A stretch of 62,911 bases of DNA, filler included, from Kipferlia bialata (taxonomy: Eukaryota): NCBI GenBank assembly GCA_003568945.1. It is 5 parts of 5 records of this genome, joined end to end, with 100 filler letters (N's around TTAATTAATTAA, not from the genome) between each part and the next. Parts side by side here need not be neighbours in the genome. Positions count along the whole stretch, not along the records: positions 1 to 17,993 come from BDIP01000498.1; 4 more parts are not named here. The stretch is one strand, 5' to 3'. Under the pieces are notes generated by a model that was not told the origin of the DNA, made no database searches, and saw only the letters and a list, made by a program, of their open reading frames with translations. The position numbers were made by a program, and so were the translations under genes. Of this stretch, positions 9,036 to 47,090 are shown piece after piece (the stretch's first letter is position 1; the number at the start of each line of letters is the position of its first letter).

Positions 9036-10414
9036 GACACAAGAGCATCACGTCTTTCTGGGTGCACTCCCTATCAATGCCAAAGGTGTGTGGTCTGTTG
9101 CTGCATTAATCACTCTGCCTAGACACTCACACGAGCGTGTGTGTTGTATCTTCCGTTTAGTTCAGTCACAGGGTTACTTCGGACCTATGTCTCTATCTCT
9201 ATCTCTATCCCTAACCCCAGGCTGACCGTGCCAACCCCCTCTCTAGGGGTGACAGTGAGAGGGTGTCCGAGGCAGAGGACATGAGGGGGAGGGAGGAGTC
9301 GACAGAGACCGAGGAAGGGGTCTTTGCGAGTGAGTCGGAAAGAGAGAGGGAGAGAGAGAGAGAGGGTGAGACTGGCACTGGGTTGGAGAGGGAAGACGGG
9401 AGAGAAGGGGAGAGAGAGGAAATGCAGCGCAAGAGAGACATATTTGTCAGAAGTGCCGCTGGGTACTGTGTGGCCACATTCCTATTAGGTGCGTATATGT
9501 GTATTTGGTGTGCTGTTGGTGGCCCAACTCATCATCTTGCCTCTCTCTCTCTCTCTCTCCCTGTCTCTTATGTCCAGGCATTGGCGACCGTCACCTTGAG
9601 AACCTCCTCCTCGACTATGAGGGCAGACTGTTCCACATCGACTTTGGGTTCATACTCGGTATGTGTCAGTCTATATTGTAACTGGTTACTTTACTGTATA
9701 CTGGCTAGGCATACTCTAGTGCACTTTCTTCGAGTCAATTGCCGATATTCTTCACCATCTGACCCCCAGGCCGTGACCCGAAGCCCCTCCCCCCGCCCAT
9801 GAAGATCAACAAGGACATGGTGCTTGCAATGGGTGGACCCACCAGCCAGGTACCCGCTTGTATATACAGTGACTTGTCTATATTTGTTTATGTATTACAT
9901 ATATGTGTCTGACCCCCAGGGCTATGCCCGCTTCCTGTCCCTGTCCTCCGAGGCCTATAACATCCTGAGGCGGAATGCAGGGACAGTGGTGGCCACGCTC
10001 AAGCTGTGCGCCGCAACAGGTATGAATGCCACATTGCAATCGCTTGAGTGTGCACATGTGTCTCCCTGACCCCCAGGCATTGAGACTCTGCAGGCCGAGG
10101 ACGCCTCGTCCTTCCAAGATACGGTGGGTAGATACAGACTGGAGCTCAGTGACGAGAGAGCAGGGGCACACTTCAGAACAAGGTGGGGCAGATACTAGTG
10201 TGTATCTACCCATGATTGGACATTGTGGACGTAAACATCCCCTTCTCTCTCTCTAACTGCCAGGCTGAAGCACAGTGTGGATGCCCTGTTCCACTTTCTC
10301 TCTCTCTCTCGTTCTCTCTCTCTGACTGCCAGGCTGAAGCACAGTGTGGATGCCCTGTTCCCTGTCATTCTGGACCACTTCCACAGGCTGGTCCAGAACT
10401 ACTGGAGGGCATGA
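9036..10414 (+). CDS. VPS34: Class III phosphatidylinositol 3-kinase, C-terminal part of the kinase domain only
   Basis: Spliced: [54 protein letters not shown]...AYNILRR...[11 protein letters not shown]...[14 protein letters not shown] and the C-terminal YW are Vps34 signatures. Confidence 0.92.
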
Positions 10415-10655
10415 GGTGTATCACTGTCACTCTAATTGAGCACTTGTGGAACAGCGATACTTATACTGAAACAGGTCCAGAACTACTGGAGGGCATGAGG
10501 ACGCTATCCTTTTAGTATAACTCTAATAGAATACAGCTCTTGGAACATGGTAACATTATGATTCTAGTTGTACAGATCATTCACTTCCTGACACGGTAAC
10601 AAAATGAATGCTTTTCTACAGTATGAAATTGTGCTCTCTAAGAGGCCACATGATG

Positions 10656-10785
10656 TGCAGCTCCAGGTCTCCTACCCATATGGTTCACAGAGACCCTGGG
10701 CATCAACAGTATCTGATATACAGATACATGTATATACATCAACTGGCAAGAGAACCCTGGTGAGTCACCCACCTTCAACGCTGCA
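10656..10785 (-). promoter_or_regulatory. Candidate type II SECIS element, split by a predicted 77-nt 3'-UTR intron (10696-10772)
   Basis: After splicing: UGCAG-CGU-UGAA-GGGUCUCUGUG-AA-CCAUAUGG-GUA-GGAGACCU-GGAG-CUGCA. This gives stem I UGCAG/CUGCA, a GA/GA core, an 8-bp stem II, AA 11 nt above the core and an apical mini-stem. Confidence 0.7.
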
Positions 10786-10809
10786 TGCTGTTTGATGGAC
10801 CAATCTCCT

Positions 10810-11091
10810 CTACTTGAGTAGTTCCCTGATGGTCTCTACTATCCTACTTGCGGTCGGGTACCGATTGGAGGATCCCTAGATGAGCAGACAGAGAACATCA
10901 TATGAATTCAACTCCCTACTACTCAATCAGTATCCCAGTCTGAATGTATCGCTCACCCTGGAAAATACTGTCTGGCCGTCACATGATATGTCAAAGACAC
11001 CATAAGCGTCAGTCTGGGATGTAGTGACCTGTGGTGGGGGAAAGCAGGAGGGGTAATGTGGAGAGAGAGAACCAGTAGGAAGAGAGAAGAT

Positions 11092-11126
<35 letters not shown>

Positions 11127-11352
11127 TGCCGACCTCCGCCTCAGGGAACTCCCCCCTCAGAGTATCGGCAAGGGTATAGACATACCGACTGACACCTCAG
11201 GAGAAGGTGAACTGAACGTGAGAGATGACTCTTACTAGATAAGAGAGAGATGGTTAGAGAGAGAGGTGGGTGGGAGGGAGGGGGGGGGGGGGTAATGTAG
11301 ATTCATATATGCCCTGATACAACTGGCTAGGTACCTGAATATCAATGAGCAT
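10810..11352 (-). CDS. SelW/SelT/SelH (Rdx) family selenoprotein, 77 aa; exons 11352-11335, 11211-11134, 11028-10957, 10875-10810
   Basis: Three phase-0 GT-AG introns give MLIDIQFTFSUGVSRYVYTLADTLRGEFPEAEVTTSQTDAYGVFDISCDGQTVFSRGSSNRYPTASRIVETIRELLK*, with TGA at 11197-11199. Matches the Rdx pattern xxxUG...L...FP...GxFxIxxDGxxVFS...YP. Confidence 0.88.
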
Positions 11353-11687
11353 CTCTGTTGCGCACTCCGCTAGGAGACAGTCAAGGCCATCTCTATTCGT
11401 GTCTGCTGCACCCCTAGCCAAACACAGCTGAGGGGGGTCTCACATGCTCGACGAGCAGAATGGACAATTCACCTTTCTACTGTATACGTGCTTCTGACTG
11501 CGAGAGATACCCTCCAGGCGGTATGGAGCTGGGATGCATCAGCCTGGACAGTGTATGCAGTGTCTCCTTCACTCATCACTGTCTGACTACCACAGCACTT
11601 ACCCCCGTATCTGGAGAGAGTAGGACACCCTAGCTGACTGACCTCGTGGCACCCTTGGTGTATCTGTACCAGCATTACCAGTGAGAG

Positions 11688-14509
11688 ATGGTCCACAGGA
11701 CAGTGGTCGTGACTGGGGGCTCAGGGTTTGTGGGCCAGTATGTATGTGCCGCAGTACACAATGCAGGTGAGGGCTGACCCCATGTATATCGCGTTAGTAT
11801 TCCCTGTTAAGAGACTTCTCTATCCCCCCCCCCCCCTCCTGTCAACCTTCCCCTCATCCCTAGGCTACAGACTGAAGGTGCTTGTCCGCCCCACCTCCGA
11901 CACCTCCCGCATCCTAGTCCCCTTTGAGCCAGTACTAGGCAATGTCAACGACACAGAGTCGATGCAGAAGGTATGGATATGCACAAGGATGTATTCTATT
12001 TAGTTGTAGGTACCCTCTATTCTCTCTCCCCTCCCCCCTCGCCCCAGGCCTTCTCCGGGTGCCATGCTGTCATCCACCTGGCCTGTCCCTCGGCATGGAG
12101 TATGCTCAGCAGCCCAGGGGTGGTGGACGTCATACAGGTATGCTATATAGCGTGTGTACACTAATTAGCCAAGTAATTTGGGGTTGTCCATGTCATACAG
12201 GTATATACAATATATATATCTACATATTTATAGGACGTTGGCAACTGGAGGAGACATGTGAGTACTATGGGCTATCACCATGTGTATTTTCACCCTCAGG
12301 TTGGGACTGAGAATGTCATTGCGGCATGTAAGGCAGTGGGGGTGCCCAGGCTGGTGTACATGTCATCGGCTGCGGCAACAGGTACGTACATGATGTATCC
12401 ATTATATATAAGTATACACAGATCAGGACTCGCTTTCTCTCACGGTAGGAGGCTCAGCCGAGCCCTGTCCCCAGCTGCCAGAGAGGCCTGACCCTACGCG
12501 GTGTGGGGACATGTACTACGCTAGAGGTATATATGTATATCATGCAACATATGTATGTGATATATTCATTGTACTACAAGACAGACACTCCCCTATCTGA
12601 CATACTCCTTACCCCCAGGCAAAGCCCTTGCAGAGCTCTCCGTGCTAGAGTATGCCAACTCTCTCGGGGACCTTGCTGGTGAGTAGCCATATATATATAT
12701 ATGCAGCATACGTGCATTGATACCTCTTGTCCTACTCTCTGACCCCCAGCCCCCTCCGACACCTCCAGCGACTATGTGGCCCCCAGCGTCATAGACAGTG
12801 AGGACAGTCAGGCACCCAGGGTGGTCATCATTAGGCCTGGGGAGGTGTTCGGTCCACATGACACAGGTGGGTGGGTATATATATATTAATATTTATACTT
12901 CAGTATGTAATACACCCACTCCAGGCCACATCACGTCCTCTGACTTTGTGTCCCTGGTCCCCACCTCCTCCCCCCCTCTGCCTGTGCTGGTGCCAGACGG
13001 GGGGGTCACGGCGGTGGATGCTAGGTATACCTATGTACATATCAATGACTTAATAATAGTGACTCACAGCGGTGGATGCTAGGTATATACACATATATAC
13101 ACATATATACACATATGTATAAACACAAAAGTGTGCAACGTCTCCTATCTGACCCCAGAGATGTAGCCCAAGCCACAGTTGCAGCCATAGAGAGGGGGAG
13201 GCATGGTACCATATACAATCTAGGTATAGGGGTGTGTCAGGATACACAGATGTCTTAGGGGCATAGACTATCTACGCTAATAGCTTACATATAGGGGGAG
13301 AGAATGTGACCATCCGCGAGTTAGCCAGACGCAGCCAGTGCCTCATGGGTGTCTTTGGGGTGGGTGTCCATACCCTTGACCTCTCTGCATGTTTATCCAC
13401 TCTCTGACCCCCAGCTCATTGTGGTGCCCAGTCCATGGCTGACAAGGACAGTCATCAGGGCAGGTATATAATCATACATTCTTATGGTATGTATGGTGGT
13501 GTATAGGTCTGATACCCAGGAGAGTCAGGGCAGCTACACTACTCTATTATATGTGTATACCATGTGTATCTTTGTATAACCAATGCTTATATGTATCCAG
13601 TCACAGTTATGGTCATCCACCTCTTTCCATGTTTCTCACCCTCTAGGCATGGCCCTCCCATGGCACCCAGCATGGGCCGTGACAGGCCACTATGCACAGA
13701 GGTATTTACAGATGTATATCACTATATCTGTGTTGACAGTCTCACCCCCAGATACTGGCTACTGGACTGCACCTCTAGTTACAGAGACCTAGGCTTCTCC
13801 CCGAGGTCTCTAGACCTAACCCTCTATGACACACTCTCCTGGCTGTGTGAGAGTGGGGGGATGGGCAAGAGGTAGATAGTTACGGATATAGATATCAAGT
13901 GTATATACAAAGGGTCACCTTCTCTATTCACTCAAACTAGGTTCCGCTCCCGCAAGCCCTCTGCATCCAGTCTGTCCAGACACTCCCAGGCAGCGTTGAA
14001 GGTGGGGCATATGTATATGTGTGTATATATATATATGTGTATACGTATATATAGGGATCGACTAGATTTACCAGTCTGTCCAGACACTCCCAGGCAGCGT
14101 TGACGCTAGGGGTATGTCATAGGACTCTGGTAGATCTTGTCTACCAGTCTAGTGTCCATCTGTATGTATGTCTGCTTCCCGACTTACTCCCAGGTGCACC
14201 TGAGTGCCGGGTCTGTCCCCCCCACCCTGCATGGGCCATCAGTCGGTATCACAGATGTCACAACACTCCCTCTCAACACTGCAGTGCACAAGTTCGACCC
14301 CATCAGGTGACAGTGAAGGACTACACTATAGTGATGTTATTGATATGTAGAATTGATTTGGTTGGGCAACCTCAGCCGTTGACTCATTACATTGTTGATA
14401 TGTATTATGTATTAATGATATGCACATATATGTGATACATATGCATATCCCTCTGATACCCAGGTCAGTGGACGAAGAGGAGGAGGGTGGCAGGGGCATC
14501 GGGAGGTAG
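11688..14509 (+). CDS. Extended SDR, NAD-dependent epimerase/dehydratase (HpnA / dihydroflavonol reductase / 3-beta-HSD-like), many introns
   Basis: MVHRTVVVTGGSGFVG Rossmann motif, GCHAVIHLA, GTENVIAACKAVGVPRLVYMSS, YARGK (YxxxK), RPGEVFGPHD, VDARDVAQA, RDLGFSPRSL. Confidence 0.85.
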
Positions 14510-14781
14510 AGAGATATGAGTTTATGCCCGAGACAGTCAGAGTCAATAGAGATTCCACATACTCTAAGGATAGTACTATCGTCCACTAGCAGTCCATCCT
14601 ACCCAGCGTGGAGAGGAGAGGCACCTTAGTAATAGATGCAAGGAGTACTAGGTTCCCCGTGACAGGTTTCCACACAAACTGATGAAACGTGTGACAAGTC
14701 CTACTTTGTCAAAAGGGTGCAGCGTTTTGTCTCTTCTTCAAGTGTGCCATCTCGCAGACTCTTTATCCACACTTACTGAAG

Positions 14782-17240
14782 ATGGGAGATTGTACGTGGG
14801 AATGGTACCATTATATGTTGAGTTTCATGTGCCGCAGTAGAATATAAGTGTTTGTGAGCACATACCTGTTGTGTCTGTCGTTTGTGGTTGAGATTAGTGA
14901 CATCAAGTATGACGTGGTCAGGCAAGTCCCTCACCCCCAGGTGCTAACTGCCCAAGCAGAGGAACATGCGGAAAGGCCCAGGGTATGTGGTGTTGTACCC
15001 TATATGTGATGTTGACGGTCTAATAGCCCAGTCTCACAGGAATCAATAATCTGCTTCATTTGATGTGGGCCATTGATTATATTGATCCTTGTCTCACAAC
15101 CAGCCCAGGACGCCAAGCCCGACCCATGTGCTGGATGCCCTAGCAGGAGCGCCTGTGCCTCTGCTGGCAAGGGATGTGGAGGCAAGCCCCAGGTATGTGA
15201 GCCCTGTATCGATGTGTTGTCTCTTTGACACTGATGAGCATCTGAGACGCCACTCTCATGCATCAATGTACATCGACACAGTGTTATCTGTGCTACAATA
15301 CACTACCGTATCTTACCCACAGGAGCCTGCCTGTGAGAACGCCGGGTCCGACAAGTGTGCAGGGTGCCCCAGCAGGTAACCATTAGATGCATTAACTATT
15401 TATCGAAATACATATTGATTTCATATTTCTACTCCTGTCTCACCCTCAGGGCCACCTGTGCCAGTGCCAAGGGTGCCGCTGCCGCCGCCCCCAACCCCAT
15501 CCACGCCAGGGTCGCCGAGCGCTTCGCCAACGTCAAGGTACACATTCATATTACTCTCTCTCTATACATATACATATTACCTATCCCATTGTATGTTCTA
15601 CTATTTAGTGTTGCTCTGGTTCAGGGAACCAATACCCCCCCCCCCGTTGGCTAGTATGTCTATCTCTCTCCCTCACCCCAGAACGTGATTGTCGTGCTCT
15701 CCGGCAAGGGAGGTGTTGGCAAGTCCACCGTGGCCGCACAGCTCGCATACCACCTCGGAAGGGCCTATGGTGCCCAGGTATATTCTCTCGCTTCTGCGTA
15801 TATGTGTAAACTAGCCTCTCTCTCTCACTGCCTTTCGGTGCCTCCCCTTACCCCAGGTCGGTCTCCTTGACATCGATATCTGCGGACCCTCTGTGCCCAC
15901 CCTCACCAGCACCAAGGTATAGCATCTCTCTCTTTCTCTCCCTCCCCCCCGCTCTATCTCTGGTTCTTAACCCCTTACCCCCCTCTCTTCTATTCTTTCT
16001 ATCTCCCCCCTAGGGCCACGAGATCCACAACTCCGGCCTCGGCTGGGAGCCCGTGATGGTGAACGAGAACCTCAGCGTCATGTCCATCGGATACATGCTG
16101 GCAGACGATGACGCCGCTGTCATCTGGAGGGGACCCAGGTAGACAAGCGAATGAATATATACAGTGTATAAATATATATATATATATACATGTGTGTATA
16201 TCCCTCACTCCCAGGAAGAACAGCATGATCCAGCAGTTCGTGACCGAGGTGTGGTGGGGTGAGCTCGACTACCTCATCATCGACACCCCCCCAGGTACAC
16301 GCCTAGTGCATATATATACATTTATATAGCAACTATCTCATCCCCCCCCCCCAGGTACAGGCATAGTGCATATATATACATTTATATAGCAACTATCTCA
16401 TCCCCCCCCCCCTCACCCCAGGCACCTCCGACGAGCACCTGTCCATCCTCAACCTCCTCACCCCCTCCCTCAAGAACAAGCCCTGCGGAGCTGTCATCGT
16501 GTCCACCCCCCAGGTACACACACTGCACTAGCTGCCCCCTTTCTATCTCCCCCCACCTCTCTCACTCCCCACCTCCATTCACCCCCCTCTGCCTCTCTCT
16601 ATATCCCTCTCTCCATATATATCTCCCCTCACCCCCAGGAGGTGGCCCTTGCCGATGTGCGCAAGGAGATCAACTTCTGCCACAAGGTGACCCTGCCCGT
16701 GTTTGGTGTCGTTGAGAACATGTCTGGCTTCGTGTGCCCAGGCTGCAAGACTGAGACCACCATCTTCCACCCATCCAACGGAGGTGAGGAACAGTGTAGT
16801 GTGCATACCTCTCTCCCTCACTCTCTCTCCCTCACCCCCAGGTGCCAGAGGCATGGCCGAGCGCATGTCTGTGCCTTTCCTTGGCAGACTCCCCCTTGAT
16901 ATGCACCTGGTTAGGGCATCCGAGGAGGGCAGGTACTACTATCATAGTATATACACACACCTTCATCATGGATTTGTATTCTATCCACTGACCCCTCTAG
17001 GTGCTGGGCCGGTATGGTTGCCCAGATGTCCGACATCCCAGCCGACGAGGCTGCCCAGAAGGAGCAGGTATGGCCCATGTGCCTCTCTCTCTCTCTCTGT
17101 CTGTCTCTCTCCCCCCCCCCCTCTCACCCCAGGTCGATGACTTCTACGGCAACCCAGGTCTTAGGATGTTCTCCGAGACCGTGGACAAGCTCCTCATCAA
17201 CCTGCATGGCGTGGCCCCTGAGAAGGAGCAGGCCTGCTAG
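14782..17240 (+). CDS. NBP35: Cytosolic Fe-S cluster assembly scaffold, Mrp/Nbp35 P-loop NTPase
   Basis: N-terminal Cys motifs, [86 protein letters not shown] at 17238-17240. Confidence 0.95.
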
Positions 17241-17590
17241 GCAGCACTAGACCAAGAGCACCACTAGGGTAGTGGGATAGAGGCATATATGGACTCTAGT
17301 CACTAGCCTGGGTGCCGCATGATTATTATAGCCATTCCTAACCGTTCGAATAGAGAAGTGTGGAAGTGATATATCATAGTGACGGCTGTAGGTTCTGTCA
17401 TGGAGAAGAAATCTGTTACCCCTCCTGTCACGGAGAGAAGGGTTTATCTAATAGTCTTTGGCGGATTGATCGAAAAGTCCGATCAATTTCGTAAGTCCGA
17501 CAGCTCGATTCCCAACTTGCTTCCTTCGGCTGTAAGGGCATTGAAATGGCGGGTCATAGCGGCCCAGGCCCTGACAGGGTCATAGTCACA

Positions 17591-17993: not shown

Positions 17994-18093
17994 NNNNNNN
18001 NNNNNNNNNNNNNNNNNNNNNNNNNNNNNNNNNNNNNTTAATTAATTAANNNNNNNNNNNNNNNNNNNNNNNNNNNNNNNNNNNNNNNNNNNN
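17994..18093. other. Artificial contig spacer (N44-TTAATTAATTAA-N44)
   Basis: All-frame stop linker flanked by Ns. Confidence 0.98.
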
Positions 18094-18115
18094 CAGACGT
18101 GTGCTCTTCCGATCT
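18094..18115 (+). other. Illumina TruSeq adapter remnant
   Basis: CAGACGTGTGCTCTTCCGATCT at the contig start matches the 3' part of the TruSeq read-2/index adapter sequence. Confidence 0.95.
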
Positions 18116-29382: not shown

Positions 29383-32300
29383 ATGATTCTATTAGTCCTC
29401 GCCCTACTCTTGGCCGTACTGGTGGGAGGCATTGTGTGCCTATGCCTGTACGGTAGGTTCAAGCCGTCCCCCTATCTGGTTGAGTTCCGGTCCCCCTCCT
29501 TTGCCTCTGCCTCCTCCTCCCGAGGGAGGGTGGGCGACACAGGGCTCCTCACCCACATGGAGTGTGCACAGACACTCTCAGAGGACCTTGCAGACGTATA
29601 CGTCAGGGGCAAGAGGAAGGAGAGGCTTCGCGTGTATGTCTCACCCGCCTTTGACCCCCGCATCAGACGGTACTCATACAGCCCATACCGGCTGTCTGAC
29701 AAGCTCTCTCTCTCCCTGGCATGGAGTGCTGATGTCACCCAAGTGACAGTGGATGGTATGGAGGTGCGTATGGAGGCCAAGGTGGAGCTCCTGGCCTCCA
29801 ACCACGGGCATGAGGTGGAGATTGTGGGTAGGACTGCAGATGGCAGACAGGCCTCATACTCTGTGGTCATCATGCCCTGGTTCATGCAGCCCATCTGCAA
29901 TGAGGTGCACCAGGTGGACCAGGTGGCACCCGGCATCATGACAGGTAGGGGGTGCATAGCCTGTGTACAGGAGGATCTCAATACTACTGATACTGATACT
30001 GATACTGCACCCGGCATCATGACAGGTGGGTTGCACAGGAGGAGACATGGGTATTGGCTTATCTCTTTGCCCCCCCCCCTCCCCCACTCTACCTTCCTTC
30101 TCTCTCTCTCCCTCTCCCCCCCCCCCGATGTGTCTGTCTCTCTCACTGCCATCTGTCTCTGAGTTATCACTGGTCTCTCTCTCTACCCCCCAGGCATGAG
30201 CTCTGTGTGCACTGTGCTGAAGCCATTCGGCATGAAGAGGATGCTGTGGAACATGCTCAACACAGTTGGGTTCAGAGGTAATTATGTGACATGTGATTAT
30301 ATATCCCAGGGCACTGATCTTCAGGCCTCCTGCGTATACTCAAGAGCCGCAGGAACAGTCCCTTCATGGATATTGGTGACCCCTTGGTGCAGAAGTACCT
30401 GGACCCAAACAGAGTGTACTGTCCGGGTATGACACACATACTCGTGTATAAACCAACATCTCTCTCTATATATGTACCCATGTATATTTGGATGTATGTG
30501 TGTATTCACTGGTACCTTGTGTGTGTCTCTCCCCCCCCCCATACCTCTCTCTGACCCCAGGCTCTGCCTTTGTGCTGGACATGTACGGCACACCCCTGCA
30601 GTACACAACAAGGCACGAGGGCAAATGTTTCTCTTCTAGCATTCTCAGTGCCACATATATAGACATACATATGTTCGTATACAGATTCGTTTAGAGATGG
30701 ACTGAATGGGACTATATGTATGCATTGCTTACAGTCAGAGACCTTCGCATGATCACCATACCCTATGCTCTACCCAGTGGCACCGGGGGTACCCTGGTGC
30801 CAGAGACAGGTGTGTAGTATAATATAACAGTATAACTCAATTCGCGTGCTAGACTGTACAATACCGTTATACATTCTCGTGCCTGAGACAGGTAGGTACA
30901 CAGTATGCATTATCTCTCTGTACTTCGAATTAATGCAACCCCCCCACCCTCCAACCCCCCAGGCTTCTTGTACAACACACCTGTGCAGGATGACCTCCTC
31001 AACTTCGCAGAGGCACCCTCCCGCACATTCATAGCAAACAGGTTTGTGTTGCATTGTGTGTATATTCACTCTTCATGTCTCCATTACATGTCTTTCTCAC
31101 TAAGTATGTTACCTCTTATACCTCTAACCCCGCCAGGTCTCTAGAGGGTGCTGTGGAGCTACCCCGTGTGCTTGAGCAGCATGACGACTCCCACGAGCTG
31201 TTCATCACCCCTAGGGGCACCCTCATGACCACATACTACAGGATGTACGAGAAGGGACACGTCCTGAACAACGGGGAGGTGGGGCTGAGAGTATGAACCC
31301 TTACCCATTTGTCTTCCCGCTGTCTCACCCTAGACCCTCGACCTAGCCGTAACCTCGTGCTACCTGGTGGAGAGGGACACTGAGGGACAGGTGGTGTGGG
31401 AGTGGGACAGCATCGACCACATCTACCCCGACCCAGACCCTGCCGTCTGCTACCAGCCCACAGAGGGGTTCAACTACCACGACTACTTCCACTGCAACGG
31501 GGCAAGGTGGGTATATATACTATTGTCAATGGTATTATATATATATATATTATACATTTCGTTTTATGTTTATGACTACCACGACTACTTCCACTGCAAC
31601 GGGGCAAGGTGTGTTTATGAATGCATGCAATGTTGTATATATGTGTAGTGTATGACTGCTTTCTTTCACTGCCACAGTTACACAAAGTCTCAGTATAATC
31701 GCGTGATGCATGCATGTTGCTATGATTCTACCACTGCTCTGACCCCCAAGGTTCAATGAGACGGACCCCAACGAGATGCTGATCACTGGTAGATACCTCA
31801 GGGGGTGCATCAGTGTAGACTATACAACAGGTGTACACTCCATATACACAGCCTCCTGACCTGTTGTATATATATTGTATACATATATTGAATACATATT
31901 GAATATATATGTATTATCGTGTCAATCTCCCTGTCTCTTACCCTCTAGGCGCTGTCAACTGGATCCTGGCCAACCCCTCCAACCCCCTCAACCAGTTCAC
32001 ATTTGTCAACGACCCCCTCGAGGGACCTGGCTCCTGCCATGCCGGACTACTCAATGGCAACACTCTGCTCCTGTTCGACAACGGTATGTCACCATATATG
32101 TATCCACAGTTGTTGCAGTAGAGTGTGTCTCTAGCCGTTGGTTATGCCTCACCCCAGGTGACTACCTGACCCCTGAGTACAAGGAGGGAGAGGAGGGATG
32201 CAGGCTGTTTGGCAGGGCCCCCACCCCCTGTGTGCACACCTACAGCAGGATGGTGGAGTACACCCTAGACATAGAGGCACGCACTGCCACATACGTCAGG

Positions 32301-36025: not shown

Positions 36026-36065
36026 GTGCTCTCAGTACACGACTGATCAAGTTTGGTGCTCCAGC

Positions 36066-36165
36066 NNNNNNNNNNNNNNNNNNNNNNNNNNNNNNNNNNN
36101 NNNNNNNNNTTAATTAATTAANNNNNNNNNNNNNNNNNNNNNNNNNNNNNNNNNNNNNNNNNNNN
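36066..36165. other. Artificial contig spacer
   Basis: N44-TTAATTAATTAA-N44. Confidence 0.98.
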
Positions 36166-36372: not shown

Positions 36373-39300
36373 GGGCAGCTATGTTACTGGCCCTGGACAC
36401 AGAAGAGCTCTCTCTCTCTCTCCCTCTCTCAGCCCCAGGGCACCCTCCGCAACAGACCCAAGACATGGCACATGGGGGGCATGGCAGGGGTCATGGCACA
36501 GACAGCTCTCAACAGACAGGTGGGTGGGTGTCCCATACACTAATACACTCACATGGATATGTGTAGTCCCTGGGAACGACTGACCATGGACGTATATACC
36601 CCACGTCTATGATGTCCCCTCCCACCCCCCAGGTGTATGACGCCTCTGTCTCCCCCTTGATCCCCTCCATTGTGGAGGGGGACACGGCATGCTGCTTCTG
36701 CTACGGACACACAGGTGCTAACACACAATATCTATATTCTTATCAATAGCACAGATATGTCTCCTCTCATACCTAGAGGTGCTGACAAGACCCGCACCAT
36801 CATTGGATAAGCAGTCTGTGTATTTAAGACTTATATTGATATTTACTGCACATATTTGTCTGATTCAGGTGCTGCCAAGACCCACACCATCATAAGTAAC
36901 TAAAGTGCAATATGATATACTATACTAAGTGTATAGCTATGTATTCTACCACATACTAACTTAGTATTACTAAGCATCACTAAGTGTTACTAAGTATTAC
37001 TAAGTACATAGGTGCCGGCAAGACCCACACCATCATTGGATACAGTACCATACCTTACTCTACTAAGTATAAATATCTCTATATATTTCATACTACTTCA
37101 TACCATATACTAAGTATAGGTGCTGGCAAGACCCACACCGTCATGGGCTACAGGGGTGAGCCAGGCCTGTACTCCCTGGCCGCAGCTGATCTGTGTCACG
37201 CAATTGGGCAGAAGGTATTAGTATTGTAGCATATGGTAGGTGGGGGGCAGGTTCAAACAGTACCAATCAATATTCCCCCCCTATCAACTCACAATCACAT
37301 GAGACATAGGTTTAGCACACTACCAGAGAGGTATATTTTCCCTCCGTAACTCTCTTATGTCTCGGTCTCACCCCAGAATGCTGGCCTTTTGCTCCAGATC
37401 AGGTTTGCAGAGATATACAACGGGAAGGTATGGTGACTCTCTCTGCTCTCTTCCTCTCCCCCCACCTTGGGGTACTGACCATATACACACAGTATTCATT
37501 GATGCCATCTATACTGACCTCCAGGTGTATGACCTTCTGCGTGGCAGGGCTGAGTGCACAGCCAGACAGGCCGAGGACGGCAAGGTATGGGTATATGGAC
37601 TACACTCTGTATGGATATATTGTGTACATGTGTACATGTATGTGTTGACAGGCCGAGGACGGCAAAGTATATGTATATGGACTGTACTATGTATGACTAT
37701 GTGTTATAGAGTAGTATTTGTATCTGTTGACAGGTCAAGGACGTCAGTTTCATGTATACAAGACATACTATGCATCACTCATCGCCACTTCCCCCACCCC
37801 TTAGGTCCACATCCGGTCTGCTGCCCTCAAGGACGACAAGGGCCGTGTCACAGTACATCCCCTCCATGCACTGACCACAGACACACAGGAGGGTATGTCA
37901 CTTGTGTATATATATATATATGGTATATGTATATAGTATACATATATAGAGAGTGTATCAACTCTGCATCCCCTGCATGCACTGACCACAGACACACAGG
38001 AGGGTGGGGGGGGTGGCTGAATAACAGGCACAGAATGTATACAGAATGTAGTATACAATCCCTCCCTCTTATTCCAGGCCTCGATGCCATTGTTTCCCTG
38101 GTCATTTTCTATAGATAATATATAGCGTACGTGTTATATGCATATACAGTGTATATACCTTATCCCAGGCCTCGATGCCATTGTGGCCCAGGGCATGGCT
38201 GTCAGGAAGGTCGGGTCCTCCTCCCTACACGACGAGTCGAGTAGGTCACACGCCTTGCTCTACATAGAGGTATGGACAGATGCACATGTGCTACCGTCCC
38301 ATATCACGAAGTGTATTTGAGTAGGGAGGCTTGTCCCTCCCTCTCCAATCCATATTCGTAGTGTTGGTGTCCGTGTGTGGTGTTACTGTTAGTTGTATAA
38401 TGTGAATAGCACTACCGTATCTCTAACCCCTAAGGTTGTGAACCGTGCCCTGCTGTCACTGAGGGAGTCCATCATAGCACAGGAGGGCGAGGTGGCAAAG
38501 GCAGGTGGGTGGAGGGTGGTGGATGTCTATATATCATATAGTTGAGGTGGATCTCAGTACGGGATACTATTGGATGTTTGTGTAGTCGTCTGCCTGTACT
38601 TCACACACTGTCAATTGGCTACATTGTTGCCTCCTCACCCCCCAGGCCTCCCCTACGATGACCTGTATCTCAAGGAGCAGCACAAGATGTACAAGCTGGA
38701 TGAGGAGACAGGGCAGGTGCGGGGATACTGTACAACCACCCCAAACGGGCAAGTATGAATGTCTTGTTCTCACTCTACCAGTCCCATACTAACCCTAGTG
38801 GGGCCCTGCACCCCTGGCAGACTATGACTCAGAGGGTCTGGCAAGGCTCAAGGTGGGTCGGTACTGACGCCATCTCTACCAGTCATCTAGAGCGTAGTGG
38901 ATGTAGTTGTGTTAGCAGTTTACTGTATACTATCCTCTCTGTACACTGACATCAAGGTCGTGGTTGACAGAGAGGCAGCTATCCTGGCTGACTTGCAGGC
39001 TCAGGAACAGACAGTCGTGGAGGTAGGGGAATCCCTATATAGTCTCTCTCACACAGACTAATAGTATCACTCAATACACTAATACCATCAGGAGTGCCGT
39101 GCCCTTGGCCACACTGTGGGTGGCACCCTAGTGCTGATAGACCTGGCAGGGGCAGAGTATGGGATCACGGGCGGTAAGCAGGTAATACCTTGGTTTCTAT
39201 TAATACGCGTTGCATTCTATGACTATGTATGGGTTTGTACCTGACCTATAGGTGACCCCCAAGCAGAGAAGAGAGGGACAGGAGATCAACAAGACACTGC

Positions 39301-46990: not shown

Positions 46991-47090
46991 NNNNNNNNNN
47001 NNNNNNNNNNNNNNNNNNNNNNNNNNNNNNNNNNTTAATTAATTAANNNNNNNNNNNNNNNNNNNNNNNNNNNNNNNNNNNNNNNNNNNN
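46991..47090. other. Artificial contig spacer
   Basis: N44-TTAATTAATTAA-N44. Confidence 0.98.

What the first reader, a model, noticed from the sequence alone, without database searches (positions are those of the whole stretch)
10656..10785. SECIS element that appears to be assembled by splicing of a 3'-UTR intron
Seen: downstream of the selenoprotein stop (minus strand) I find no well-formed SECIS in the genomic sequence. There is, however, a typical intron for this genome at 10772-10696 (AAG|GTGGGT...TTGATGCCCAG|G, 77 nt). Removing it joins UGAAG to GGUCUCUGUG and yields stem I UGCAG/CUGCA, core UGAA/GGAG, stem II GGGUCUCU/GGAGACCU, unpaired AA 11 nt above the core and an apical CC-AUAU-GG mini-stem. 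In the unspliced RNA the intron's terminal CCAG can pair with CUGG and sequester the 3' half of the core. Known: eukaryotic Sec insertion needs this GA/GA kink-turn, which binds SBP2. Inference: splicing acts as an on-switch for UGA recoding, and intron retention would give a 10-aa peptide. I know of SECIS removal by alternative 3'-UTR splicing but not of assembly by splicing; novelty needs a literature check. The base before UGA is U rather than the usual A/G. The junction is only 37 nt past the stop, under the usual 50-55 nt NMD distance.
Basis: partly seen in the sequence, partly recalled or inferred. Interest (0 to 1): 0.92.

Follow-up and report, generated by a model that had tools for sequence, protein, structure and literature searches.

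The report
Intron splits a selenocysteine insertion signal
In a small redox gene of an intron-rich eukaryote, an intron cuts through the predicted RNA hairpin that likely lets UGA be read as selenocysteine; an assembled transcript shows the intron removed, so the signal would exist only after splicing, most likely as routine splicing rather than a regulated switch.

Summary
Observation confirmed; the 'on-switch' reading is not shown. A five-exon minus-strand gene (77 codons, in-frame TGA at codon 11, SelW/SelT/SelH-like) has a 77-nt GT-AG intron 37 nt past its stop. An assembled contig of run X1 joins exactly across it. Only the spliced UTR gives a well-folded type II SECIS-like hairpin: 0 of 3000 shuffles were as stable, and the unspliced region has no SECIS hit. 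The intron lies one base behind the 5' core, separating it from helix II, the AA and the 3' core. Caveats: the element passes only the loosest of four SECISearch patterns; the contig ends 12 nt short of the element's end; one run, no orthologs, no function test. No retained form was seen, but contigs drop rare forms. The acceptor is weak, yet no weaker than two coding introns of the gene. Best reading: an ordinary constitutive intron sitting inside a SECIS. In a 44-vertebrate survey every described SECIS lay in one exon, and ten literature searches showed no split case. The scan's notes held no such case on other DNA.

The parts
11335..11352 (-). Exon 1 coding part (ATG plus 5 codons); inferred
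   Evidence: Open frame and GT donor. Not seen directly in RNA: the contig's first 29 nt could be exon 1 or the end of intron 1.
11212..11334 (-). Intron 1, 123 nt, phase 0, weak acceptor
11134..11211 (-). Exon 2, with the T-x-x-U motif
   Evidence: its last 30 nt are the contig's loose end
11197..11199 (-). In-frame TGA, predicted Sec codon (codon 11)
   Evidence: falls near the start of the Rdx/CXXU profiles; the codon itself is not among the RNA letters shown
11029..11133 (-). Intron 2, 105 nt, stop-free in frame
   Evidence: spliced per loose end
10957..11028 (-). Exon 3 (Rdx-like stretch)
   Evidence: Pfam Rdx E 0.021 and TIGR02174 E 0.0039 on its own; RNA cover
10876..10956 (-). Intron 3, 81 nt, weak acceptor
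   Evidence: RNA joint skips 81 nt
10773..10875 (-). Exon 4: last 21 codons, stop TAG 10812-10810, 37 nt of 3' UTR
10780..10785 (-). SECIS helix I, 5' arm
10774..10777 (-). SECIS 5' core UGAA (preceded by U at 10778; followed by G 10773, the first base of helix II and last base of exon 4)
10696..10772 (-). 3'-UTR intron, 77 nt, GT-AG, strong donor, weak acceptor, predicted branch A at 10703
   Evidence: RNA joint; scores
10665..10695 (-). SECIS helix II (rest of 5' arm 10695-10686), unpaired AA 10685-10684, apical mini-stem 10683-10676, 3' arm 10675-10665
   Evidence: RNA cover down to 10668
10661..10664 (-). SECIS 3' core GGAG
   Evidence: not covered by the RNA contig
10656..10661 (-). SECIS helix I, 3' arm
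   Evidence: not covered by the RNA contig
10522..10568 (-). Two one-mismatch copies (starting at 10568 and 10527) of the window's candidate poly(A) hexamer AATAGA; predicted 3'-end region
   Evidence: inference

Best explanation
A spliceosomal intron lies inside the predicted SECIS of a likely SelW/SelT/SelH-type selenoprotein gene and is removed from the assembled transcript, most likely constitutively, so the recoding signal would form only in the mature mRNA. Shown: gene layout, in-frame TGA, Rdx-like similarity, the exact splice joint in RNA, and a statistically unusual hairpin that only the spliced form gives. Inferred: splicing brings UGAA next to helix II, and tandem G.A/A.G pairs close a kink-turn (helix I, 3-nt bulge GUU, G.A, A.G, A.G). 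An SBP2-like protein and the Sec elongation factor would bind and insert Sec at codon 11, 233 nt upstream. Unspliced RNA would stop at UGA after 10 codons and would probably be degraded, which makes splicing a passive prerequisite like that of any coding intron. Origin, inferred and untested: the intron was probably gained in an existing SECIS, whose AG|G at the core/helix II boundary matches the commonest exon-side context of this genome's introns.
For: RNA joint of exactly 77 nt with canonical ends, in a contig that is also spliced at introns 2 and 3. Only the spliced form was assembled at depth 34.9. Spliced UTR matches SECISearch Loose+ with helix II closing on the core (P 0.985); the single contiguous alternative has P 0.0. 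Meets the NTGA..AA..GA spacings of PMC2375036 (12 nt and 20 nt). The fold holds in whole-mRNA context for 4 assumed 3' ends and 2 temperatures. Rdx E 3.7e-4 and CXXU_selWTH E 2.3e-5. Length 77 is ordinary (median 83 of 68), AG|G is seen in 37 of 68, and coding intron density is 7.4 per kb, i.e. 0.38 expected per 52 nt if a UTR had that density. Mammalian SelW, SelV, SelH, SelT and TR3 carry ordinary 3'-UTR introns just before the SECIS (PMC3316567).
Against: The element fails 3 of 4 SECISearch patterns (U before UGA), and its 3' core ends in G where the consensus is KGAW. The Loose+ pattern alone is weak: 189 raw hits in the window and 965 of 3000 shuffles. The fold filter is my own and its cut-offs were set after seeing the element. 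The contig ends at 10668, has 27-28 nt beyond the joint, and comes from one run whose RNA status is a guess. The protein has T, not C, three residues before U, and both profile hits are below the curated cut-offs. No relatives were found, so there is no covariation or conservation evidence. The branch-point 5-mer TTGAT is not among those of the 68 reference introns, the acceptor is weak and is predicted to be paired in the pre-mRNA, which leaves room for slow or regulated splicing. Sec machinery of this organism could not be checked.
Confidence: 0.7

Rival explanations
1. Regulated splice switch: the weak, structure-buried acceptor makes this intron a detained intron whose removal is controlled (by selenium, oxygen or stress), turning Sec insertion on.
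For: Acceptor score 1.0 against a median of 13.0, 3 of 68 lower or equal; atypical branch point; few pyrimidines. The acceptor's last bases are predicted paired at P 0.88-0.99. Splicing is strictly needed for the fold. SELENOS shows that 3'-UTR splicing can control Sec insertion (PMC3628699 abstract).
Against: No retained contig. Coding introns 1 and 3 rank equally low. The pairing is what the acceptor consensus would give anyway. The pre-mRNA fold shows no GA/GA kink-turn for a protein to sense (read by eye). The reference introns were chosen by a score-maximising predictor, which inflates the contrast.
Confidence: 0.13
2. The hairpin is not the working signal: a chance or decayed SECIS look-alike, with UGA recoded by another lineage-specific element, or a gene that no longer makes a selenoprotein.
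For: Two departures from consensus; 6 other candidate junctions of 2557 pass my filter by chance; TxxU instead of CxxU; RNA does not show the 3' core; a diplomonad SelW1 gene is reported with UGA but no canonical SECIS (PMC2874811 passage, cut mid-sentence).
Against: It sits on the one RNA-confirmed UTR junction of the one in-frame-TGA Rdx gene examined; 0 of 3000 shuffles were as stable; AA at the canonical distance; the frame is intact and spliced on both sides of TGA; candidate poly(A) signals lie downstream of it.
Confidence: 0.14
3. Artefact: the joined contig comes from DNA (a processed copy or an allele without the 77 nt), not from splicing.
For: The run's RNA status is a guess and no DNA run was laid.
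Against: The same contig lacks three introns with exact canonical ends; the run holds 0.33 of the words of an intron-rich stretch, as exon-only cover would (inference).
Confidence: 0.03

Closest known systems
Eukaryotic type II SECIS (PMC3753652: section 4, passages, supplement S1 patterns and S4 grading seen; PMC2375036: passages)
   Same: GA/GA core, helix I and II, unpaired AA 11 nt above the core, apical mini-helix, 3'-UTR position 233 nt from the UGA.
   Different: Not contiguous in the genome; U before UGA; 3' core ends in G; no spacer between 3' core and helix I, giving a textbook 3-nt-bulge kink-turn geometry (geometry recalled, not from a call).
Mammalian SelW/SelV (also SelH, SelT, TR3) 3'-UTR introns (PMC3316567: section 8 and passages seen)
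   Same: Same protein family; a 3'-UTR intron after the stop; in SelV the junction is on average only 13 nt before the core, in SelW 38 nt.
   Different: There the paper states the SECIS lies entirely in the last exon; here the junction is one base behind the 5' core, inside the element.
Human SELENOS variant 1 (PMC3628699: abstract seen)
   Same: 3'-UTR splicing decides whether a SECIS is present.
   Different: Splicing removes the SECIS and two isoforms are documented; here splicing makes it and one form is seen.
Rodent MsrB1 3'-UTR intronization (PMC2901347: passages seen)
   Same: A lineage-specific intron in a selenoprotein 3' UTR.
   Different: That intron excludes the SECIS and both forms support Sec insertion.
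Diplomonad selenoprotein W genes (PMC2874811, PMC3916229: passages seen)
   Same: Small SelW-like protist genes with in-frame UGA.
   Different: No canonical SECIS reported there and almost no introns. Whether this window is related to that lineage was not tested.

Membership tests
Eukaryotic SECIS type II | Tandem GA/GA core (NTGAN ... NGAN as in all four SECISearch patterns) | tested here: met
   UGAA/GGAG in the spliced form only
Eukaryotic SECIS type II | Stricter consensus: purine before UGA and W at the end of KGAW | tested here: not met
   U before UGA, G at the last place; fails strict, default and loose patterns. Filed only as an atypical, predicted SECIS.
Eukaryotic SECIS type II | Unpaired AA 10-13 nt above the core, helix II closing on the core | tested here: met
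   11 nt; inner fold -13.1 kcal/mol; P 0.985
Eukaryotic SECIS type II | Helix I below the core and apical mini-helix | tested here: met
Eukaryotic SECIS type II | In the 3' UTR, beyond the 51-111 nt minimum from an in-frame UGA | tested here: met
   233 nt (limit)
Eukaryotic SECIS type II | Whole element present in the mRNA | tested here: inconclusive
   Contig ends at 10668, 12 nt short; candidate poly(A) signals lie downstream
Eukaryotic SECIS type II | Covariance-model score (Rfam SECIS, SECISearch3) on the spliced form | not testable with these tools
   Rfam could be run only on the unspliced DNA: no SECIS family at E up to 10
Eukaryotic SECIS type II | SBP2 binding and Sec insertion | not testable with these tools
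   needs bench work
Rdx family (SelW/SelT/SelH) | Profile match at the curated cut-off | tested here: inconclusive
   PF10262 21.1 bits against 22.6; TIGR02174 24.6 against 34.2, on a read-through of exons 2-3 that includes intron 2 and lacks exons 1 and 4
Rdx family (SelW/SelT/SelH) | N-terminal CxxU motif | tested here: not met
   T-x-x-U in exon 2; called Rdx-like, not a typical SelW
Spliceosomal GT-AG intron | GT..AG ends, branch A 6-10 nt from the 3' end, removed from RNA | tested here: met
Regulated retained intron / SECIS splice switch | Two isoforms, ratio changing with condition | tested here: inconclusive
   Only the spliced form assembled in the one run; contigs drop rare forms

The most novel reading that the evidence does not exclude
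A selenium- or redox-responsive splice switch: the SECIS's own upper stem buries the weak acceptor of the intron that splits it, so controlled removal of one 3'-UTR intron assembles the recoding signal and changes the meaning of UGA from stop to selenocysteine, the mirror image of SELENOS variant 1.
Probability: 0.13. Interest if true: 0.88.

Novelty: new variant of a known kind. Interest (0 to 1): 0.58.

Why it matters
SECIS-first selenoprotein searches on genomic DNA assume a contiguous element. A SECIS cut by an intron is invisible to them (Rfam finds nothing here), so selenoproteomes of intron-rich protists may be undercounted and should be searched on spliced UTRs. It also gives a natural case in which UGA recoding depends strictly on splicing, with a simple RT-PCR test for regulation. 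If constitutive, it is a neat first-of-its-layout example more than a new mechanism.

Tried and rejected
No whole genome is held, so other selenoprotein UTRs and the Sec machinery could not be checked; no tRNA gene in the window. No run on record as RNA was listed; one guessed RNA run was. RNA data exist only for 10420-11085, so retention at this intron could not be compared with neighbouring genes, and exon 1 and the TGA were not seen in RNA letters. Protein relatives: 1 hit among 1.84 billion representatives, on the intron-derived stretch, rejected as spurious; none in PDB; 588 pattern matches but 0 confirmed relatives in metagenome contigs; the protein atlas gave no answer. A contiguous SECIS in the unspliced UTR: 1 Loose+ match, rejected because its helix does not close on the core. 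The intron's branch-point UGA as a substitute 5' core: rejected, no pattern match. Other AGs as acceptors: all 11 score below the used one. A 17-nt copy of the 5' half plus donor at 13990-14006 looked significant but 4 complex repeats of that length exist in the window: chance. Predicting UTR introns in other genes from splice scores could not discriminate (best false candidates 12.3 against 11.5). Literature: ten searches listed no report of an intron inside a SECIS; most hits were seen as listings only, the library lacks most subscription papers, and supplements other than that of PMC3753652 were not read (PMC3316567 Figure S33 may show SelV helix I touching its junction). 'seleno' had 0 occurrences in PMC6934886 and PMC5874029; PMC8557442 and PMC2874816 passages were not relevant. 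The organism was not identified; a fornicate-like protist is a recalled impression only.

Full report
Gene. The minus strand carries a five-exon gene: coding exons 11352-11335, 11211-11134, 11028-10957 and 10875-10810, 77 codons with one in-frame TGA at codon 11 (11199-11197) and a TAG stop. Exon 3 alone matches Pfam Rdx weakly (E 0.021). A read-through of exons 2-3 matches Rdx at E 3.7e-4 (21.1 bits, cut-off 22.6) and TIGR02174 SelT/SelW/SelH at E 2.3e-5 (24.6 bits, cut-off 34.2), with the TGA at the start of both profiles. The motif is T-x-x-U, not C-x-x-U. Exon 1 is inferred from frame and donor only.

Intron. 10772-10696 is 77 nt, GT..AG, 37 nt after the stop. One public run (X1, assembled contigs, RNA status guessed, 0.33 of the words of 9100-17300) was listed. 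Laid on 10420-11085, 2 of its 174,042 records fitted. A 310-nt record at depth 34.9 skips exactly these 77 nt and the 81 nt of intron 3, both with CT..AC ends, and its loose end is the last 30 nt of exon 2. No record lies inside the intron. Against: only 27-28 nt follow the joint, under the tool's 31-nt bar; the record ends at 10668; contigs drop rare forms.

The element. I coded the four SECISearch patterns from the supplement of PMC3753652. The spliced UTR matches only Loose+, twice; the unspliced UTR matches Loose+ once. The junction-spanning match has an inner fold of -13.1 kcal/mol, helix II closing on the core (P 0.985) and an enclosing helix I (P 0.92). The other match, present in both forms, does not close on its core (P 0.0). 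Loose+ alone is weak: 189 hits in the window, 965 of 3000 shuffles. With my fold filter (inner energy at most -7.4, a recalled threshold, and two P above 0.5, chosen after seeing the element) 2 of the 189 pass, 6 of 3000 shuffles pass and 0 of 3000 are as stable. Of 2558 candidate junctions in the window, 262 junction-spanning Loose+ hits arose and 7 passed, this one included and the only one with AA. The fold holds for 4 assumed 3' ends, 2 temperatures, UTR alone or whole mRNA; unspliced, the core halves are 77 nt apart and the intron's last bases pair with the 3' core at P 0.88-0.99. Rfam finds no SECIS on the unspliced DNA; the spliced form could not be scanned. Departures: U before UGA, and G in the W place of KGAW. 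The spacings of PMC2375036 (NTGA to AA 10-13 nt, AA to GA 15-39 nt) are met with 12 and 20 nt.

Does the mRNA reach the 3' half? Not shown. AATAGA follows 8 of 8 other gene ends; this gene has one-mismatch copies at 10568 and 10527, both beyond the element and none before it. The converging gene's contig also stops 30 nt before its own AATAGA, so a contig end at 10668 is weak evidence of a transcript end (inference).

Switch or routine intron? I predicted 68 introns in five neighbouring genes (a sixth failed; not RNA-checked, some visibly wrong, biased to strong sites). The UTR intron has ordinary length (median 83), a strong donor (50 of 68 lower or equal) and a weak acceptor (3 of 68), with a branch 5-mer not seen in the set. 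Coding introns 1 and 3 have acceptors ranked the same. AG|G is the exon context in 37 of 68, and the SECIS supplies AG|G at this very point. Coding intron density is 7.4 per kb, 0.38 per 52 nt; UTR density is unknown. The pairing of acceptor and core follows from consensus letters. The Sec codon is 63 nt before junction 2, so under the mammalian 50-55 nt rule (PMC4105750 passages; untested in this organism) the mRNA would be decay-sensitive without the UTR intron. Nothing here needs regulation, and nothing excludes it.

Known cases. [quoted passage not shown] SELENOS variant 1 loses its SECIS by splicing (PMC3628699 abstract). Rodent MsrB1 gained a UTR intron outside the SECIS (PMC2901347 passages). 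Ten searches listed no SECIS cut by an intron, within an open-access library and mostly from listings. The scan's own notes held 0 findings with all the words; one note on another genome concerns splice-like motifs flanking a SelT SECIS that stay in the transcript, and it gave the SELENOS reference.

Verdict. Real, RNA-supported and apparently undescribed layout: a new variant of a known kind. Constitutive intron inside a working SECIS 0.70; regulated switch 0.13; element not functional 0.14; artefact 0.03. No orthologs were found and no genome was held, so conservation and the Sec machinery remain open. Interest 0.58.

Noticed in passing
window 11334-11212, 11133-11029, 10956-10876 (-): All three coding introns are phase 0 and multiples of three (123, 105, 81 nt), against 23 of 68 in the reference set; intron 2 is stop-free in frame, so its retention would add 35 residues.
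   Followed up: partly
gene ends across the window: AATAGA lies within 300 nt after 8 of 8 other gene ends examined (0.077 expected each): candidate poly(A) signal of this organism. The selenoprotein gene has only one-mismatch copies.
   Followed up: partly
window 10420-10530 (+): The converging PI3/PI4-kinase-like gene (Pfam E 1.6e-9) likely ends here; a 3697-nt contig stops at 10495, 30 nt before its AATAGA at 10525, suggesting contigs of this run stop short of true 3' ends.
   Followed up: partly
window 10760-10747 (-): The UTR intron holds a degenerate copy of its own acceptor plus the start of helix II, 16 nt after the donor; seen by eye.
   Followed up: no
window 13960-14090, 16286-16412, 31470-31610, 36700-37120 (+): Several introns carry local duplicates of the neighbouring exon end and splice site; seen by eye and. 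May be a route of intron gain in this genome.
   Followed up: no
window 13990-14006 (+): Exact 17-nt copy of the SECIS 5' half plus donor at an exon end of the neighbouring 3-beta-HSD-like gene; judged chance.
   Followed up: yes
window 11390-11370 (-): A six-codon open frame just upstream of the start codon, beyond the contig's inferred 5' end.
   Followed up: no
window 17994-18115, 36046-36165, 46991-47090, 58171-58270: Runs of N with a fixed spacer show the window is several joined contigs; a stretch at about 18094-18115 looks like sequencing adapter (recalled).
   Followed up: no
window 14966-17240 (+): Nbp35/NUBPL-like Fe-S scaffold gene with a cysteine-rich N-terminus, 12 predicted introns.
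   Followed up: partly
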